Virus genome (UHGV): UHGV-0187499
Source of the DNA: a virus
Reading direction: 5' to 3' (one strand)
DNA length: 16,665 bases
The first letter of the stretch is position 1. Each line of letters opens with the position of its first letter. The notes under the pieces were generated by a model. That model saw only the letters and a program-made list of their open reading frames with translations. It searched no databases and was not told where the DNA came from. Shown piece by piece: positions 1,627-7,642 of this stretch. Position numbers and translations under genes: made by a program.

Positions 1627-1695
1627 CACTTCTCTGTTCTCACATAAATCACACTCTTTTTACACTCACAGCTTTCTCTATAGTTGGAGTGTATT

Positions 1696-3081
1696 TTGAA
1701 CAAATCAGTTACTTCTGCGCTTTCCGAGGCCGCAGATATTAACAGCGTCATTGCTCTGGTTTCTTCATTAGAGAGGAAAGAAACACGCCTGGGGCGAAGT
1801 AGCTACGTTGTCACCAGCAAAGGTGCAGAGGTAAAGACGGCTTTTAAGGTCGTTGATGCCAGCAGTCTGATCATTTCGAACAACCTTGACGGTATGATTA
1901 ACCCGGCCTTCCCGGAAGAACTCCAACCACGAGATCGTACCCGGCTATCCAGCAAACTCCAGGTTAACCGTATTGCCTCCAATTTACGCCCGGCACAATT
2001 AACGGATTCCGGTATGAGCAGCCACGGAGCGCCGATAGTTGGTCCGGACAACGTTGTTGAATCCGGCAACGGAAGGAGTATGGGTATCTGGCGTGCCTAT
2101 GAGCAAGGACAGGCGGATGAGTATCGCCAGTACCTGATCGACCATGCGAAAGAGTTTGGTCTGAATCCTGACGAAATTTCGCAAATGTCTATGCCCGTAC
2201 TAGTGCGAGAAAGACTCACAGATGTAGACCGCGCTCAATTTGCCCGCGATTCAAACATTAGCGATCTGCAAGAGATGGCAGCAAGTGAAAAAGCGTATGC
2301 GGATGCGCAATTTCTCACTGAGAGCGTCATGGCGCTATTTAATCCTTCAGATGATGGAAATCTGCTGGCGCGGTCCAATGATGCGTTTATTCGTGCGTTT
2401 TTGCGCGAAATTGGCGATACAGCGACGGCAGGCTTGCTTACTGCCGATGGGCGTCCCACGAAACAGCTTATCGATCGCATCCAGAATGCAATTTTTGCCA
2501 AAGCGTACAAGGATGAAAGGCTTGTTCGGCTAGTGTCGGAAGAGCCAGATCCGGAAATGCGTAATATCCTGACCGCATTAAATACGGCAGCCAGCGATTT
2601 TGCGCAAATGCAGTCGCTGTCTGGCGACGCTCACCATGACGCAGTAACAGGCTTAGTGGACGGTATAGAGCAGGTTAATGGCCTGGATAAACAGGCTATT
2701 GCAGCGCTACAGGAAGCAATTAACCTTGTTCGTGAAGCAAAAGATAACGGTCAGGCAGTAGAAGAGGTGATCGCACAGCGTGGATTGTTTGGAGATAGCA
2801 CTCCGGAAGCAGAAGCGCTTGCTCTGTTTATTGTTGCCAACAACCGAAGCGCTAAGCGAATGGGGGCCGCTTTCAAGAAACTGGCGCAAAAAATTAACGA
2901 TGAACTTATTCACCAACAACAAGCGTTAGGCGATATGTTCGGCGGCGGAGATGTCGATCTGCGTAGCATTTTATCTGCCGTTTCTGATGAAATTGAGGGT
3001 GAATTTGGCGAAGGGAAAGGTCTGAACTTTGCTATGTTTGAAAATTCTACAGTTCTAAATAATTGCAGTATGGAAAACTAA
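1696..3081 (+). CDS. Hypothetical phage protein (about 461 aa); acidic, Gly-rich C-terminus; candidate head or internal protein
   Basis: ORF track 1684-3081. Preferred start is TTG 1696, with GGAG at 1686-1689 six nt upstream; TTG 1684 is an alternative. No Walker A, so not a terminase large subunit. Sits directly upstream of the portal-like gene. Confidence 0.55.
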   Translation: MNKSVTSALSEAADINSVIALVSSLERKETRLGRSSYVVTSKGAEVKTAFKVVDASSLIISNNLDGMINPAFPEELQPRDRTRLSSKLQVNRIASNLRPAQLTDSGMSSHGAPIVGPDNVVESGNGRSMGIWRAYEQGQADEYRQYLIDHAKEFGLNPDEISQMSMPVLVRERLTDVDRAQFARDSNISDLQEMAASEKAYADAQFLTESVMALFNPSDDGNLLARSNDAFIRAFLREIGDTATAGLLTADGRPTKQLIDRIQNAIFAKAYKDERLVRLVSEEPDPEMRNILTALNTAASDFAQMQSLSGDAHHDAVTGLVDGIEQVNGLDKQAIAALQEAINLVREAKDNGQAVEEVIAQRGLFGDSTPEAEALALFIVANNRSAKRMGAAFKKLAQKINDELIHQQQALGDMFGGGDVDLRSILSAVSDEIEGEFGEGKGLNFAMFENSTVLNNCSMEN

Positions 3082-3145
3082 GCCAACCGCTGAAATCACA
3101 TACTGATTATGCTGCCGCAAAACTGGAAACAATTTGCGGTGATTC

Positions 3146-4828
3146 ATGGCAACGAAAGACAAAAACAAAGGCTTTCTGTCAGCATTGAAGAAAGCCTTCA
3201 ACGGTGGTGATGTTACGCCCGCCGATCCGGTCGTTTTTACGAGCGGGCATAGTGTCGTTGCTCGTTCCGGCCTGTCTGCTTTACGTCCAGGTATACTGGG
3301 GAGCAACAGCGATGGCATGACGAGTGCAGCAGATTCAATTTCTTTATCCGCTGAACTGCCCGGCGAGCGCCTGCAAAAGTACAACATCCTGGAAACGATG
3401 GCTAAAAGCCCGACTATCTCGACGGCTTTAAACATTCACATTGCACATGCGCTTGCGCCTTCAAAAAAAACCGGACAAGCATTCATCCTTTCGCCAAAGG
3501 ATGGTTCCGATGCTGAGGCAGTAAGTAGATGTGAAGAGTTAACCGCTGATTTGGGGGCGATGATTAATGACGGACTTCCTTCATGGGCCATGATTATGGC
3601 TATCTTTGGGGTGTCTTATGTCCGACCTTATGCTGAACAGGGCAGGGGGATAACAGGCATTGAGTCCAGTTATTACACTCTGCCACACTTCGTCCAGGAG
3701 TTTTATCGTGGTAGCCAGCTGGTAGGTTTCAGTGGTGATTACATTCTGGATACGCATAGTTTGCGCAGAGTAATAACCGAACCGTGGAATCTGGTTTCCA
3801 TGAAAAATCCCTATTGGACACCACAGCATAAAGTTATTCCGGTTAGCTACGGCACAAAAGGGTACTCACTGTTAAGTGATCAGGCTGATAAGCCGTTAAT
3901 GGAGACGCAGAATTACGGAACTTCATTCCTGGAATACAGCTATGAACCTTACCTTAATTTATGTGCTTCGCTCGCCGCGCTGAAATCAACGCGAAATAAT
4001 GCAGCCAAAATTGACCGCCTGATTGCTCTTACGACGAACACACTGGACCCGGTTAATGCGGCGAACTATACGCGTGGCGTCAGCCAGGCATTGAAGCGTC
4101 ATAGTGACCTGGTGGCGCAAAGGTCGATTAATGCCAACGCTATTCCGACTGTGCTTAACCATCTGATACCTGTTATGGGAGACGGGAAGAACGGCATCAC
4201 CATTGATACGCAATCCATACCCGCAGATATCAGTGGTATCGAAGACGTTATGTTTCACCTCCGGCAGCTTGCTGCAAGCCTCGGCATTGACGCAACAATG
4301 CTTGGCTGGGCTGATCAGATGAGCGGAGGGCTTGGAGAAGGCGGCTGGCAGCAAACTGCTATCCAGGCTGCATTGCGTGCGAACTGGATCAGACAGGCCG
4401 CCCAGCGAACTATTTATCGGCTTCTGGACATTCACCTCGCTTATAAATACGGCAAGGTTTACACCGAAACAAACCGCCCTTATGACGTGCAATTCAACTC
4501 AATGAACACTGCTATCCAGGAAGAGGAAAACCGAGAACTGGATGCACGCGCCAACTTTGTTGCTGTCATCTCCCAAATTATGGACCAGATCCAGAACAAC
4601 CCGAAACTGGCTGGTAGCGACGCGTTTATGCGTTATCTGTTCACTGAGCAGTTGCACATCGACGATGACACTCTCAACACCATGATCAAAGAGTTTAAGG
4701 CGAATGAATCAGAGCAAAACAACGAGCATGGTATGTACGAATCCGCGCCGTTGTCGTCCGGTGACGATCCGGAAAACTGGACGCCAGAACAGTTAATAAA
4801 CTTTGCAAAATTTGTGATGAGCAATTAA
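3146..4828 (+). CDS. Portal-like protein (candidate), 560 aa
   Basis: 560 aa with no NTPase motifs, an acidic C-terminal tail, and a position immediately upstream of a protease/scaffold-like gene that it abuts closely. The assignment rests on size and position, not on a recognised motif. Confidence 0.5.
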   Translation: MATKDKNKGFLSALKKAFNGGDVTPADPVVFTSGHSVVARSGLSALRPGILGSNSDGMTSAADSISLSAELPGERLQKYNILETMAKSPTISTALNIHIAHALAPSKKTGQAFILSPKDGSDAEAVSRCEELTADLGAMINDGLPSWAMIMAIFGVSYVRPYAEQGRGITGIESSYYTLPHFVQEFYRGSQLVGFSGDYILDTHSLRRVITEPWNLVSMKNPYWTPQHKVIPVSYGTKGYSLLSDQADKPLMETQNYGTSFLEYSYEPYLNLCASLAALKSTRNNAAKIDRLIALTTNTLDPVNAANYTRGVSQALKRHSDLVAQRSINANAIPTVLNHLIPVMGDGKNGITIDTQSIPADISGIEDVMFHLRQLAASLGIDATMLGWADQMSGGLGEGGWQQTAIQAALRANWIRQAAQRTIYRLLDIHLAYKYGKVYTETNRPYDVQFNSMNTAIQEEENRELDARANFVAVISQIMDQIQNNPKLAGSDAFMRYLFTEQLHIDDDTLNTMIKEFKANESEQNNEHGMYESAPLSSGDDPENWTPEQLINFAKFVMSN

Positions 4829-5868: not shown

Positions 5869-6040
5869 AGTGTATTTATATACACTGTTGATCCTGTCCG
5901 ATGTGATCGAGTAGGATCGCGGTCACTGCTCCGGTAGCGATTGCCAAAAAAAGCAAAAGCCGCTGAGAAGCGGCTTTTGGGTGTATAAATCCACTGGCAT
6001 AGATTTATACGGTAGATAGATTTTTTCACGGAACTATCTG
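5869..6040 (+). promoter_or_regulatory. Dyad-rich, GATC-dense control region upstream of the HTH protein gene
   Basis: Inverted repeat AGTGTA-N6-TACACT (5869-5886). Three GATC sites within 29 bp (5890-5893, 5905-5908, 5915-5918), inside the dyad GATCCT...AGGATC. 9-bp inverted repeat GTATAAATC (5983-5991) / GATTTATAC (6002-6010). Inverted repeat AGATAG (6014-6019) / CTATCT (6034-6039) directly abutting GTG 6041. Confidence 0.35.
5955..5978. terminator. Rho-independent terminator closing the head-gene operon; possibly bidirectional
   Basis: Stem GCCGCT / AGCGGC with a GAGA loop, flanked by an A-tract upstream (AAAAAAAGCAAAA) and TTTT downstream, so it could terminate in both directions. Confidence 0.55.
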
Positions 6041-7003
6041 GTGAATATTTTAAATTCAATTTCAGTAACTTTCAACACTTCTGAGTATAAAAACAACACT
6101 GAATACCACAAAAAAATCAAAGGTCATCAGTTGAGTTTTTTTGCTCGTCATAGCGGTTTTCTTTCCCCTTCACATAGCGCCATTATTGCCGAGTTCGCCA
6201 ACCTGGCAGGAGCTACCGATGAATACATGATCCGTCGCTCATATGCTGATATGTCCGAGATTACAGGACGCAGTATTTCTACTGTGCGCCGGGCATTTGC
6301 TGAAGCGACGAAGTGCGGAATGCTTGTTAAGCAACATCAGGTAGCGAATAACAATGCTCAGGTGTGTAACGTATACCGGTTTACAACACAATTTCTCCAC
6401 TTCATTCATGTAGCAATGGAGATAGGGGGTAAGCAGGGCATCAAATTTGCGAACGCCACAAAACTGGTTAAGCAGTTGATTTCAAAGGTTCGGTATTTTT
6501 TTGAAACTGGGAACCCCCTGTTCAAATTGAACAAGTCCCCCCATGTTCAAAATGAACAGCCAATAGAAAATAAGAGTCACTCTATAGCCAAAAGAAGAGA
6601 AAGATCATGCGCGGTTCAGCCAAAGGCTTCACCAGCGGATAGTTCTCAAGCGGATAATGGGATGCTGGATAAAAAACCAGTAATCAGGGAAGAACATACC
6701 AACCACTGCCTGGCGGCGGCAAAAGCGAGAGCTGCAAAGCGTCGTTCAGACGAGGGGCACGCAAAACGGCAGGCTCTGTATCGTACCGCTGAAAAGCTGG
6801 CAAAAAAATTTGCATGGATACGTAGTGCCGCTACCGCAGTGAATAAGCCTAAACAATCCAGTGCCCTGGATTTCTCAATGGATTATTCTGGCTCCCAGGG
6901 GTGTGCAACCATTGGTGAAGCCTTTGACCTGATGAAACAGCGTGGCTATCGGTCTGAATTTGACCGGGAGGATTGGTCAATCCCTGCGGGATTTAGGGGA
7001 TGA
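6041..7003 (+). CDS. HTH DNA-binding protein; candidate replication initiator or regulator; start codon uncertain
   Basis: HTH-like segment MSEITGRSISTVRRAFAEATKCGMLVKQ and a basic C-terminal region (KRRERS..., KARAAKRRSDEGHAKRQ). The first 80 nt of the maximal ORF are AT-rich and may be leader. Alternative in-frame starts are TTG 6131 (AAAGG seven nt upstream) and ATG 6227, which is preceded by an AGGAG-driven 3-codon mini-ORF whose TGA overlaps it. Stop is TGA 7001-7003. Confidence 0.5.
   Translation: MNILNSISVTFNTSEYKNNTEYHKKIKGHQLSFFARHSGFLSPSHSAIIAEFANLAGATDEYMIRRSYADMSEITGRSISTVRRAFAEATKCGMLVKQHQVANNNAQVCNVYRFTTQFLHFIHVAMEIGGKQGIKFANATKLVKQLISKVRYFFETGNPLFKLNKSPHVQNEQPIENKSHSIAKRRERSCAVQPKASPADSSQADNGMLDKKPVIREEHTNHCLAAAKARAAKRRSDEGHAKRQALYRTAEKLAKKFAWIRSAATAVNKPKQSSALDFSMDYSGSQGCATIGEAFDLMKQRGYRSEFDREDWSIPAGFRG
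6514..6559. repeat. Two tandem palindromic iteron-like repeats embedded in the HTH protein coding sequence; origin- or operator-like
   Basis: CCCCC-TGTTCA-AAT-TGAACA (6514-6533) and CCCCCCA-TGTTCA-AAA-TGAACA (6536-6558), period about 25 bp, followed by a purine-rich A-tract region (6562-6606). Confidence 0.6.
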
Positions 7004-7141: not shown

Positions 7142-7170
7142 TTGATCTTCCATGTTTTCAGGCTTATATT
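7142..7170 (+). promoter_or_regulatory. Candidate sigma70 promoter for the antisense-RNA / antirepressor operon
   Basis: TTGATC (7142-7147), 17-nt spacer, TATATT (7165-7170); the predicted start site would lie about 25 nt upstream of target copy 1. Confidence 0.3.
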
Positions 7171-7200
7171 CATGCCGTCGTAGCAAATTCTGCGACCAGG

Positions 7201-7222
7201 TTTGACAGCCTGAATGATTGTG
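7201..7222 (+). promoter_or_regulatory. Upstream copy of the antisense target pair (a1/b1-like): TTTGACAGC ... TGATTGTG
   Basis: TTTGACAGC at 7201-7209 and TGATTGTG at 7215-7222. This is a direct repeat of the pair at 7370-7406 and is complementary to CTGTCAA and CACAATC in the candidate RNA. Confidence 0.4.
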
Positions 7223-7290
7223 CGGACAACCGCAGATTTCCGATATTGCGGTATTTTTGTGTCCGTTAAACCGCGTTACGCCCAAATTAT

Positions 7291-7364
7291 GGTGGGGCGT
7301 GATGGGGAGGCTTCGGCCTGCTGGTTTCACAATCGCCAGTCTGTCAACCCTGTCACGTCCTGCC
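7291..7364 (+). ncRNA. Candidate c4-like antisense regulatory RNA, about 74 nt, structured
   Basis: Hand fold: a 12-bp closing stem (7291-7302 with 7353-7364, including three G-U pairs); a C(UUCG)G tetraloop hairpin at 7308-7319; a second hairpin (stem 7320-7324 / 7336-7340) presenting CACAATC (7328-7334) in its loop; and single-stranded CTGTCAA (7341-7347). Both boxes are complementary to both target copies. Confidence 0.4.
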
Positions 7365-7369
7365 ACCTG

Positions 7370-7409
7370 TTTGACAGCGGGTAGCAGGTTGTTAAACCTG
7401 ATTGTGAGG
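7370..7409 (+). promoter_or_regulatory. Downstream copy of the antisense target pair (a2/b2-like), overlapping the RBS of the 74-codon ORF
   Basis: TTTGACAGC at 7370-7378. TGATTGTG at 7399-7406 overlaps the Shine-Dalgarno GTGAGG (7404-7409), eight nt before ATG 7418. Confidence 0.4.
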
Positions 7410-7417
7410 CCGTAACT

Positions 7418-7642
7418 ATGGTTAACGCCAATCCTTGCTCACGTCCAGAATTCATCTGGCGTTTCCACTCCCTGCAAAAACACTGCGATCACTTCGCAAT
7501 TGCCGCAACCGAAAAAGAAGCCCGTTCTCTGATCCCTGATCAGTATGGTGTTCTTACTGGTCGTTTCTCTACTTCCCCACAACCAAACACTAATCCTTGG
7601 TATCGCAATATTACCAATCCCGGCATTGCGGAGGCACATTGA
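7418..7642 (+). CDS. Small leader ORF (74 aa), translationally coupled to the downstream antirepressor-like gene; icd-like by position
   Basis: GAGG eight nt upstream of ATG 7418. Stop TGA 7640-7642 overlaps ATG 7642 of the next gene. Its RBS is covered by the b2-like box. Confidence 0.5.
   Translation: MVNANPCSRPEFIWRFHSLQKHCDHFAIAATEKEARSLIPDQYGVLTGRFSTSPQPNTNPWYRNITNPGIAEAH

What the first reader, a model, noticed from the sequence alone, without database searches (positions are those of the whole stretch)
6514..6606. Tandem palindromic iterons plus an adjacent purine-rich tract inside an HTH protein gene: embedded origin candidate
Two C-rich-prefixed palindromes TGTTCA-N3-TGAACA, 25 bp apart, lie in the predicted linker between the HTH domain and the basic C-terminal region, and are followed by an A/G-rich stretch. 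Origins embedded in their initiator gene are established for lambda (dyad-symmetric iterons inside O, followed by an AT-rich region) and for P1 oriL inside repL. The same logic may apply here, which would make the 320-aa protein a cis-acting replication initiator. An operator for a different regulator is the alternative.
Basis: partly seen in the sequence, partly recalled or inferred. Interest (0 to 1): 0.55.

Follow-up and report, generated by a model that had tools for sequence, protein, structure and literature searches.

The report
Lytic replication origin inside repL
The two small palindromes and the purine-rich stretch are very probably the lytic replication origin of a phage D6-like plasmid-prophage, buried in the gene for its own initiator protein RepL, matching the origin mapped by experiment in phage P1.

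Summary
Two exact TGTTCA-N3-TGAACA palindromes (6519-6533, 6544-6558), each preceded by a C-run, are followed by a purine-rich A+T tract (6559-6606).

The window is a phage D6-like member of the P1 group. The 320-aa ORF (6041-7003) is D6 orf20, annotated as RepL, and is a distant homologue of P1 RepL (27% identity).

The element lines up with the 88-bp fragment of P1 repL that is enough for RepL-driven replication in trans (Huan et al. 2023). That fragment holds a C-run, TGTCA-N3-TGACG and the AT-rich 'AT2' tract.

The constraint is on the DNA, not the protein:
- The two copies are read in different frames.
- In 22 D6-type sequences, 0 of 24 arm positions vary while 5 of 6 spacer positions do.
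- Fourteen RepL lineages keep the same layout with lineage-specific half-sites (TGTTCA, TGATCA, TGTCA).
- These half-sites track the sequence of the predicted recognition helix.
- The element lies in a predicted disordered linker.
- The palindrome occurs nowhere else in the 91-kb D6 genome.

Verdict: this is an oriL core, a new member of a known kind. What is new is a concrete candidate RepL recognition site. Nothing has been shown functionally for this element.

The parts
6041..7003 (+). repL: gene for the lytic replication initiator (320 aa). It has an N-terminal winged-helix domain, a disordered linker and a C-terminal helical region.
   Evidence: It is the ORF listed. It is 97.8% identical to D6 orf20 'lytic replication protein' and 27% identical to P1 RepL at E 1e-15. 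It matches PHROG 2418 at E 3.6e-130. Close homologues carry PF26868.
6514..6518 (+). C-run prefix of iteron 1 (CCCCC)
   Evidence: It is invariant in 22 D6-type sequences. An equivalent C-run precedes each P1 palindrome. The TGATCA-type lineages have CGGTC in this position.
6519..6533 (.). Iteron 1 (distal): perfect palindrome TGTTCA-AAT-TGAACA, proposed binding site for a RepL dimer
   Evidence: The match is exact. The arms are invariant and the spacer is variable in the D6 clade. It encodes PLFKLN, in a different frame from copy 2.
6537..6542 (+). C-run prefix of iteron 2 (CCCCCC)
   Evidence: It is invariant in the D6 clade, while the flanking positions 6536 and 6543 vary.
6544..6558 (.). 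Iteron 2 (proximal to the tract): perfect palindrome TGTTCA-AAA-TGAACA. It corresponds to the only palindrome retained in the P1 88-bp minimal target.
   Evidence: It encodes HVQNE in frame +1 relative to copy 1. The natural variant L098 keeps only this proximal copy.
6559..6606 (+). Purine-rich A+T tract ending in GATC (6603-6606). It is the positional and partial sequence homologue of P1 'AT2' and the proposed DNA-unwinding element.
   Evidence: Its composition is given. The block CCAATAGAAAATAAGAGTCAC matches P1 CAATAAAGAATAAGAAGTCAC across a 1-nt frame shift. 6595-6608 is invariant in the D6 clade. In the TGATCA-type lineages the peak of synonymous-site conservation runs from the iterons through this tract. 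P1 AT2 is required for RepL-driven replication (PMC9948254).
6469..6481 (-). Exact match to the IHF consensus WATCAANNNNTTR (AATCAACTGCTTA), 33 bp upstream of the first C-run. This part is tentative.
   Evidence: About 0.015 matches are expected by chance in the 500 bp scanned. P1 has an annotated IHF site in a similar position, nt 415-438 of repL, but it is dispensable there.
6613..6630 (.). GGTTCAGCCAAAGGCTTC, the longest invariant run in the D6-type alignment. It sits where P1 has a GC-rich palindrome. Its role is unknown and this part is tentative.
   Evidence: The palindrome here has only 4-bp arms (AGCC-AAA-GGCT), which is not above the gene's background.

Best explanation
Window 6514-6606 is the core of the lytic replication origin (oriL) of a phage D6-like, P1-group phage-plasmid. 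It lies inside the part of repL that encodes a disordered linker.

Proposed mechanism:
1. RepL dimers use their N-terminal winged-helix domains to bind the two 15-bp dyad-symmetric sites TGTTCA-N3-TGAACA. Each site has a 5' C-run, and the two starts are 25 bp apart.
2. Binding at the proximal site helps melt the adjoining 48-bp purine-rich A+T tract, possibly with IHF bound just upstream.
3. The host or phage replisome is loaded there for theta replication during lytic growth.

What is shown: the sequence features; homology of the protein to P1 RepL; collinearity of the DNA with the experimentally defined P1 minimal target; and selection acting on the DNA rather than on the peptide.

What is inferred: that RepL contacts the palindromes rather than the tract; that the tract is the unwinding element; and that the element fires as an origin in this replicon.
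For: 1. Identity of the gene. The region is 98.3% identical in DNA to phage D6 and 99.8% identical to many roughly 92-kb E. coli and Shigella plasmids. D6 annotates the ORF as RepL. tblastn to P1 RepL gives E 1e-15. Both proteins share PHROG 2418, and homologues carry PF26868.

2. Experimental anchor in P1. The 88-bp T5 fragment is ccccctccccc-TGTCAGGATGACG-tgg-AT2-agtttccggcggtgccgg. It supports RepL-dependent amplification in trans as well as full-length repL does. Eleven synonymous changes in AT2 abolish the cis effect (PMC9948254). The window has the same order of elements at the same relative position in the gene.

3. DNA-level constraint.
- The two copies are 25 bp apart and so are read in different frames (PLFKLN against PHVQNE).
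- Among 22 distinct D6-type sequences, including a lineage with 65% amino-acid identity, 297 of 804 columns vary. None of the 24 arm positions varies (P about 6e-6, allowing for codon position), while 5 of 6 spacer positions do.
- In five TGATCA-type lineages, 17% of third codon positions are invariant overall, against 6 of 8 in the arms (P 5e-4). All 20 Asp codons in the arms are GAT. The peak of synonymous-site conservation starts at the iterons.

4. Conserved layout with lineage-specific half-sites in 14 lineages. Dyad symmetry is kept through changes on both arms: 89.5% of cells are complementary, against 20-52% when the partner is slid, with 17 double changes and 0 of 500 shuffles as high.

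5. The half-site follows the predicted recognition helix. S(I/V)STVRRA goes with TGTTCA or TGCTCA, S(E/V)GTVRRA with TGATCA, and S(Q/V)STV(V/L)RA with TGTCA. L089 resembles the TGATCA group in its flanking DNA but has both the D6-type helix and a D6-like half-site.

6. The palindrome is unique in the 91-kb D6 genome.

7. It sits in an AlphaFold2-disordered linker, residues 161-213, where peptide constraint is weakest.

8. The nearest structural matches of the N-terminal domain are MarR/ArsR-type winged helices, which bind palindromes as dimers. These matches are weak.
Against: There is no functional data for any D6-type element.

In P1 the palindromes were never mutated on their own. Mutating AT2 alone kills the cis activity with the palindromes intact (the AT2 primers leave TGTCAGGATGACG unchanged). 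So the palindromes are not sufficient, and RepL could instead recognise the tract.

The tract is only 65% A+T, against about 77% by my count in P1 AT2, and it is not the least stable DNA of the region.

No GC-skew turning point occurs at repL in the window or in D6.

There is no exact DnaA box.

P1-clade sequences are too alike to test the arms, and 2 of 47 carry a change in the distal copy.

The link between recognition helix and half-site rests on only three or four independent groups.
Confidence: 0.78

Rival explanations
1. The palindromes are an operator, not an origin. RepL or another winged-helix regulator binds inside repL to block or tune transcription or translation of repL (autoregulation), and replication starts elsewhere.
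For: Dyad-symmetric 15-bp sites are typical operators for MarR-like winged-helix dimers. The half-site tracking the RepL helix fits RepL binding but does not say what the binding is for. No GC-skew signal occurs at the site.
Against: The homologous P1 segment is sufficient in trans for RepL-dependent amplification of an unrelated plasmid. That is an origin property, not an operator property. The site is always joined to a conserved A-rich purine tract. It is unique in the D6 genome, so it is not part of a regulon. The two roles are not exclusive: an origin site could also autoregulate.
Confidence: 0.1
2. The element acts as a folded single strand. A hairpin or cruciform would form within each palindrome or between the two copies. 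It would serve as a priming or primosome-assembly signal, a nicking site, or an mRNA structure.
For: The two copies can pair. The 53-nt DNA folds at -10.9 kcal/mol with z -5.0, and the Enterobacter version forms a perfect 19-bp hairpin at -23 kcal/mol with z -8.5. RNAalifold predicts the inter-copy helix with compensatory changes. The imperfect P1 arms become fully paired if G-T pairs are allowed.
Against: Any duplicated palindrome gives these signals, so they do not discriminate. Spacers are complementary between copies in only 2 related lineages of 14. In L089 the asymmetric site TGCTCA...TGAACA is repeated directly, not inverted. L098 and the P1 T5 fragment have a single copy, which leaves only a 5-bp stem with a 3-nt loop. 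The RNA fold of the window region is not unusual (z -1.4). The P1 version folds no better than shuffled sequence (z -0.6).
Confidence: 0.08
3. It is a protein-level repeat or a chance feature. The DNA repeat would merely reflect a duplicated peptide motif in the linker, such as P-C-Q-N-D in P1 or R-S-D-Q-x-D in the Enterobacter type.
For: In lineages with 24-bp spacing the two copies are in the same frame and do give a peptide repeat.
Against: In the window the copies are in different frames and encode unrelated peptides. Synonymous positions in the arms are frozen while amino acids encoded by the spacers change freely. The peptide differs completely between lineages, yet the DNA layout is kept. 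The region is predicted to be disordered. About 0.001 exact matches are expected by chance.
Confidence: 0.02

Closest known systems
Bacteriophage P1 lytic replicon: RepL and oriL inside repL (Sternberg & Cohen 1989; Lobocka et al. 2004; Huan et al. 2023, PMC9948254)
   Same: The initiator is homologous (PF26868, PHROG 2418). The cis element lies in the second half of the initiator gene. The order of elements is the same: C-run, then a 5-6-bp-arm palindrome with a 3-bp spacer (two copies, 24-25 bp apart), then the block CAATA..AATAAGA.GTCAC, then an A-rich tract ending in GATC. An IHF-type site lies just upstream.
   Different: The proteins share only 27% identity. The half-site is TGTTCA (6-bp arms, perfect) rather than TGTCA (5-bp arms, imperfect in P1). 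Spacing is 25 bp rather than 24, so the copies fall in different frames. There is no DnaA box next to the first C-run. The tract is less AT-rich. The GC-rich palindrome downstream of AT2 in P1 has no convincing counterpart here. The gene context differs: there is no kilA and no P1-type C1 operator. Here repL follows the head protease gene and a terminator and precedes c4-icd-ant, whereas in P1 it follows c4-icd-ant-kilA.
Phage lambda ori inside gene O
   Same: The origin lies in the linker-coding part of the initiator gene. Dyad-symmetric iterons are followed directly on the sense strand by a purine-rich A+T tract: lambda CACAAAAGACACTATTACAAAAGAAAAAAGAAAAGATTATT, compared with GACAAAAGAAAAGAAGAC in the Enterobacter-type RepL and CCAATAGAAAATAAGAG here.
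   Different: Lambda has four 18-bp iterons and this element has two 15-bp sites. No significant sequence similarity between RepL profiles and lambda O was found (hhalign probability below 1%). The only links are weak and indirect, through 'O-like' PHROGs 391, 345 and 678. No lambda P-like loader gene lies next to repL.
Iteron-controlled plasmid origins with Rep_3-family initiators (for example P1 oriR/RepA; D6 orf42)
   Same: The initiator has winged-helix DNA-binding domains, and repeated binding sites lie next to an AT-rich unwinding region.
   Different: Those origins are non-coding, with several 17-22-bp direct repeats and DnaA boxes. RepL is not a Rep_3 protein. D6-type elements carry a separate Rep_3 plasmid replicon.

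Membership tests
P1-type lytic replicon (RepL / oriL) | The initiator belongs to the RepL family (Pfam PF26868 Phage_P1_RepL) | tested here: met
   tblastn to P1 RepL gives 27% identity over 92% of the length, E 1e-15. The window protein matches PHROG 2418 at E 3.6e-130 and P1 RepL matches it at 8.8e-157. The cluster 98% identical to the window protein carries PF26868. The family name is confirmed. The local Pfam copy lacks this model.
P1-type lytic replicon (RepL / oriL) | The cis-acting origin lies inside the second half of repL and is collinear with the 88-bp P1 minimal target | tested here: met
   The element occupies nt 474-566 of the 963-nt gene. P1 T5 has the same order of C-run, palindrome, AT2-like block and GATC.
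P1-type lytic replicon (RepL / oriL) | An AT-rich AT2-type tract next to the palindrome | tested here: met
   6559-6606 is 65% A+T and 69% purine, shares the AATAAGA.GTCAC block with P1 and ends in GATC. It is less AT-rich than P1 AT2.
P1-type lytic replicon (RepL / oriL) | RepL-dependent replication of DNA that carries the element | not testable with these tools
   This needs a replication assay. It has been shown only for P1 (PMC9948254).
P1-type lytic replicon (RepL / oriL) | A kilA-repL operon under a C1-repressed promoter (P53/Op53) | tested here: not met
   No kilA is present. repL follows the pro gene and a terminator hairpin. No match to the P1 C1 operator with 4 or fewer mismatches exists anywhere in the window. 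This is a difference in regulation, not in the origin itself.
P1-type lytic replicon (RepL / oriL) | DnaA boxes flanking the origin core | tested here: not met
   No exact TTWTNCACA occurs in or near repL. The P1 boxes are dispensable in plasmid assays.
Lambda-type origin (O protein with iterons in gene O) | The initiator is homologous to lambda O | tested here: inconclusive
   hhalign of RepL profiles against lambda O gives probabilities of 0.8% and 0.15%. There are weak hits of RepL-family proteins to 'O-like' PHROGs 391, 345 and 678 at about 1e-7, partly on profile regions that lambda O also matches.
Lambda-type origin (O protein with iterons in gene O) | Four tandem 18-19-bp iterons with internal dyad symmetry | tested here: not met
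   There are two 15-bp dyad-symmetric sites here. One lineage has a single site.
Lambda-type origin (O protein with iterons in gene O) | A purine-asymmetric AT-rich tract directly 3' of the iterons, all within the linker-coding part of the initiator gene | tested here: met
   
Rep_3 iteron plasmid origins | A Rep_3 (PF01051) initiator and a non-coding array of 17-22-bp direct repeats | tested here: not met
   There is no Rep_3 hit. The element lies inside a coding region. The Rep_3 replicon of D6 is a separate locus, orf42.

The most novel reading that the evidence does not exclude
The C-run-prefixed palindromes are the long-sought recognition sites of RepL. Their half-sites (TGTTCA, TGATCA, TGTCA) would co-evolve with the recognition helix and so define mutually orthogonal RepL/oriL specificity groups among P1-like phage-plasmids. 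The 'iterons, then purine tract, inside the initiator's linker' design would then be shared with lambda O through common ancestry rather than convergence.
Probability: 0.35. Interest if true: 0.6.

Novelty: new member of a known kind. Interest (0 to 1): 0.45.

Why it matters
[quoted passage not shown] Comparing the D6-type, Enterobacter/Klebsiella-type and P1-type genes points to one short dyad-symmetric site as the likely RepL target, separate from a generic unwinding tract. It also gives natural specificity variants with which to test this.

Two practical uses follow. RepL/oriL pairs are already used as inducible copy-number amplifiers in biosensors and recorders, and orthogonal pairs would extend that toolkit. 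The element also marks where lytic replication should start in D6-like phage-plasmids, which are common in E. coli, Salmonella and Shigella.

Tried and rejected
- GC skew: there is no turning point at repL in the window or in the whole D6 genome. Skew follows gene orientation.
- Homology to lambda O: not supported by hhalign with an 8-sequence or a 19-sequence profile.
- Solved structures and Foldseek: only generic winged-helix matches such as MarR, ArsR and TFE, all with E above 1e-3.
- A third element, a GC-rich palindrome after the tract as in P1 and lambda: significant in P1, L099, L004 and L087 but not in the window.
- DnaA boxes and a 13-mer-type repeat: nothing convincing.
- P1 C1 operator or any repeated operator upstream of repL: none found. 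The promoter scan found no + strand promoter upstream.
- RNA structure of the region: not unusual.
- NCBIfam gave no hit. The local Pfam copy lacks PF26868.
- The genome-contig scan returned only two P1-type loci.
- P1-clade sequences are 95-100% identical and so uninformative about the arms.
- The literature held here contains no description of RepL iterons or of a D6-type oriL. The D6 genome paper itself was not found in the library.

Full report
WHAT IS THERE

The sequence at 6514-6606 reads CCCCC-TGTTCAAATTGAACA-AGT-CCCCCC-A-TGTTCAAAATGAACA-G followed by CCAATAGAAAATAAGAGTCACTCTATAGCCAAAAGAAGAGAAAGATC.

The two TGTTCA-N3-TGAACA palindromes are exact. They are the only exact copies in the window and in the complete 91,159-bp genome of phage D6. 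Their starts are 25 bp apart. Only three runs of five or more C occur on the + strand of the window, and two of them are the prefixes. The following 48 bp are 65% A+T and 69% purine and include the most purine-rich 40-mers of the gene.

WHERE IT COMES FROM

The region is 98.3% identical to Escherichia phage D6 and up to 99.8% identical to many roughly 92-kb plasmids of E. coli, Shigella and Salmonella. These are P1-group phage-plasmids.

The ORF at 6041-7003 is D6 orf20, annotated 'lytic replication protein, similar to P1 repL'. It is 27% identical to P1 RepL over 92% of its length (E 1e-15). It shares PHROG 2418 with P1 RepL. Its close homologues carry Pfam PF26868, Phage_P1_RepL.

An exhaustive profile search found only 33 representative clusters at E up to 0.001 among 1.84 billion proteins, so the family is small.

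THE EXPERIMENTAL ANCHOR

In P1, oriL is annotated as lying inside repL. Huan, Brown and Wang (2023, PMC9948254) reported three relevant results:
- Eleven synonymous changes in a 43-bp AT-rich region, 'AT2', abolish RepL-driven amplification in cis.
- An 88-bp fragment, T5, supports amplification in trans as well as the full gene does.
- The IHF and DnaA sites are dispensable.

Their supplement gives T5 as ccccctccccc-TGTCAGGATGACG-tgg-CAATAAAGAATAAGAAGTCACAAGTTAAAAAAACAAAAAGATC-agtttccggcggtgccgg. The paper notes a 'cytosine/guanine rich' sequence before AT2 but never mentions palindromes or iterons.

In full, P1 reads CCCCCA-TGTCAAAATGATA-CCCCCTCCCCC-TGTCAGGATGACG-TGG-CAATAAAGAATAAGAAGTCAC...GATC. 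This is the layout of the window element, at the same relative position in the gene.

IS THE CONSTRAINT ON DNA OR ON PROTEIN?

Four lines of evidence point to DNA.

1. Because the copies are 25 bp apart, they are read in different frames. They encode PLFKLN and PHVQNE.

2. I collected 22 distinct D6-type sequences, including a lineage with 65% amino-acid identity (70% at the nucleotide level). In these, 297 of 804 columns vary, but none of the 24 arm positions does. Eight of those arm positions are third codon positions. Allowing for codon position, P is about 6e-6. Five of the six spacer positions vary, which changes the encoded amino acids.

3. In five lineages of the Enterobacter/Klebsiella/Raoultella type (56-81% identical to one another), 17% of third codon positions are invariant overall, against 6 of 8 in the arms (P 5e-4). 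All 20 Asp codons inside the arms are GAT, although GAC makes up 27% of Asp codons in these genes. The 15-codon window with the most invariant third positions begins at the iterons and runs on into the purine tract.

4. AlphaFold2 places the element in a disordered linker (residues 161-213). This lies between a confident winged-helix domain (19-157) and a long helix (217-266).

COMPARATIVE ANATOMY

Fourteen RepL lineages show the same design:
- a short 5' prefix, either a C-run or CGGTC;
- a palindrome with 5-6-bp arms and a hypervariable 3-bp spacer;
- a second copy 24-25 bp downstream;
- an A-rich purine tract.

The half-site differs between lineages:
- TGTTCA in the D6 type;
- TGCTCA/TGAACA in L089;
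- TGATCA in the Enterobacter type;
- TGTCA in the P1 type.

The inner three base pairs (TCA/TGA) are invariant. The outer positions change on both arms together. Of the cells counted, 89.5% are complementary, against 20-52% when the partner column is slid. There are 17 double changes, and 0 of 500 shuffles score as high.

The half-site follows the start of the predicted recognition helix:
- S(I/V)STVRRA goes with TGTTCA-like sites;
- S(E/V)GTVRRA goes with TGATCA;
- S(Q/V)STV(V/L)RA goes with TGTCA.

L089 resembles the TGATCA group in its flanking DNA (prefix and purine tract) but has both the D6-type helix and a D6-like half-site. This rests on few independent groups, so I treat it as supportive only.

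One natural variant, L098, has lost exactly one 24-bp unit and keeps only the copy next to the tract. This agrees with P1 T5, which also holds only the proximal copy.

MECHANISM

I conclude that the element is the oriL core. The most likely reading has three steps:
1. RepL dimers bind the palindromes through the winged-helix domain.
2. The adjacent purine tract is the unwinding element.
3. The replisome is loaded there.

An exact IHF consensus lies 33 bp upstream of the first C-run (6469-6481, minus strand). P1 has an annotated IHF site in a similar position, although it is dispensable there.

Several points remain inferred. In P1 the palindromes have never been mutated separately. AT2 mutations alone abolish the cis activity with the palindromes intact (primers). 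So the palindromes are not sufficient, and binding of RepL to the tract is not excluded.

RIVAL READINGS

- A pure operator is unlikely. The P1 homologue is sufficient for replication in trans, and the site is unique in the genome.
- A hairpin or cruciform is not excluded, but it is not specifically supported either. The folding and covariation signals are what any duplicated palindrome gives. Spacers are complementary between copies in only two related lineages. In L089 the asymmetric site is directly repeated. Single-copy versions exist.
- A peptide repeat is excluded by the frame difference.

COMPARISON WITH KNOWN SYSTEMS

This is a member of the P1 RepL/oriL kind. The differences from P1 are:
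- a different half-site;
- 25-bp spacing;
- no adjacent DnaA box;
- a less AT-rich tract;
- no convincing downstream GC palindrome;
- different wiring, with no kilA and no P1-type C1 operator;
- a different position for repL, which here sits between the head protease gene and the c4-icd-ant immunity region.

The resemblance to the lambda origin in layout is real. Lambda has dyad iterons followed by the purine tract CACAAAAGACACTATTACAAAAGAAAAAAGAAAAGATTATT inside the O linker. Homology between RepL and lambda O could not be shown. Only weak, indirect PHROG links exist.

VERDICT

The finding rediscovers, in a divergent lineage, the origin-within-initiator arrangement of P1. Its added value is a specific, testable candidate for the RepL recognition site.

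Noticed in passing
window 7164-7216 and 7285-7370 (+): Rfam finds the a1/b1 target region of C4 (RF03163, 54 bits) and a C4 antisense RNA (RF01695, 68 bits) just upstream of icd (7418-7642). So an immI-type immunity module lies immediately downstream of repL. In P1 the order is c4-icd-ant-kilA-repL.
   Followed up: partly
window 5954-5979 and 5984-6009: A strong hairpin (CAAAAGCCGCT/AGCGGCTTTTG) ends the pro operon. It is followed by an inverted repeat, TATAAATC-N10-GATTTATA, about 30 bp upstream of the repL start. This could be the promoter or operator that controls repL. It does not resemble the P1 C1 operator and is not repeated elsewhere in D6.
   Followed up: partly
L004 1929-1967 and L091 1088-1126 (Enterobacter-type repL): In these lineages each iteron is TGATCA-N3-TGATCA, so the origin core carries four GATC Dam sites. 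In these two related lineages the two copies together form a perfect 19-bp hairpin (-23 kcal/mol, z -8.5). This suggests methylation-sensitive initiator binding in that branch.
   Followed up: no
L002 2980-2996 (P1), also L099, L095, L097, L004, L087: A GC-rich palindrome (P1: TTCCGGC-GGT-GCCGGAA) lies just after the AT-rich tract. Its arms are conserved and its centre varies in several RepL lineages, and most of it is included in the P1 88-bp minimal target. It is absent or only 4 bp long in the window.
   Followed up: partly
L098 1678-1692 and L099 about 1700-1730: These are natural origin variants. L098 has lost exactly one 24-bp iteron unit. L099, whose RepL is 84% identical to P1 RepL, lacks the 3' part of AT2 including the GATC.
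   Followed up: no
window 3081-3146, compared with L001 5228-6162: The window goes almost directly from the ddrB-like ORF (1684-3081) to the portal gene (3146-4828). D6 has two extra small ORFs, orf24 and orf23, between them.
   Followed up: no
window 6628-6656: A 14-nt direct repeat, TTCACCAGCGGATA / TTCTCAAGCGGATA, with 15-bp spacing lies in the most variable part of repL in the D6 clade. It is probably of no consequence.
   Followed up: no
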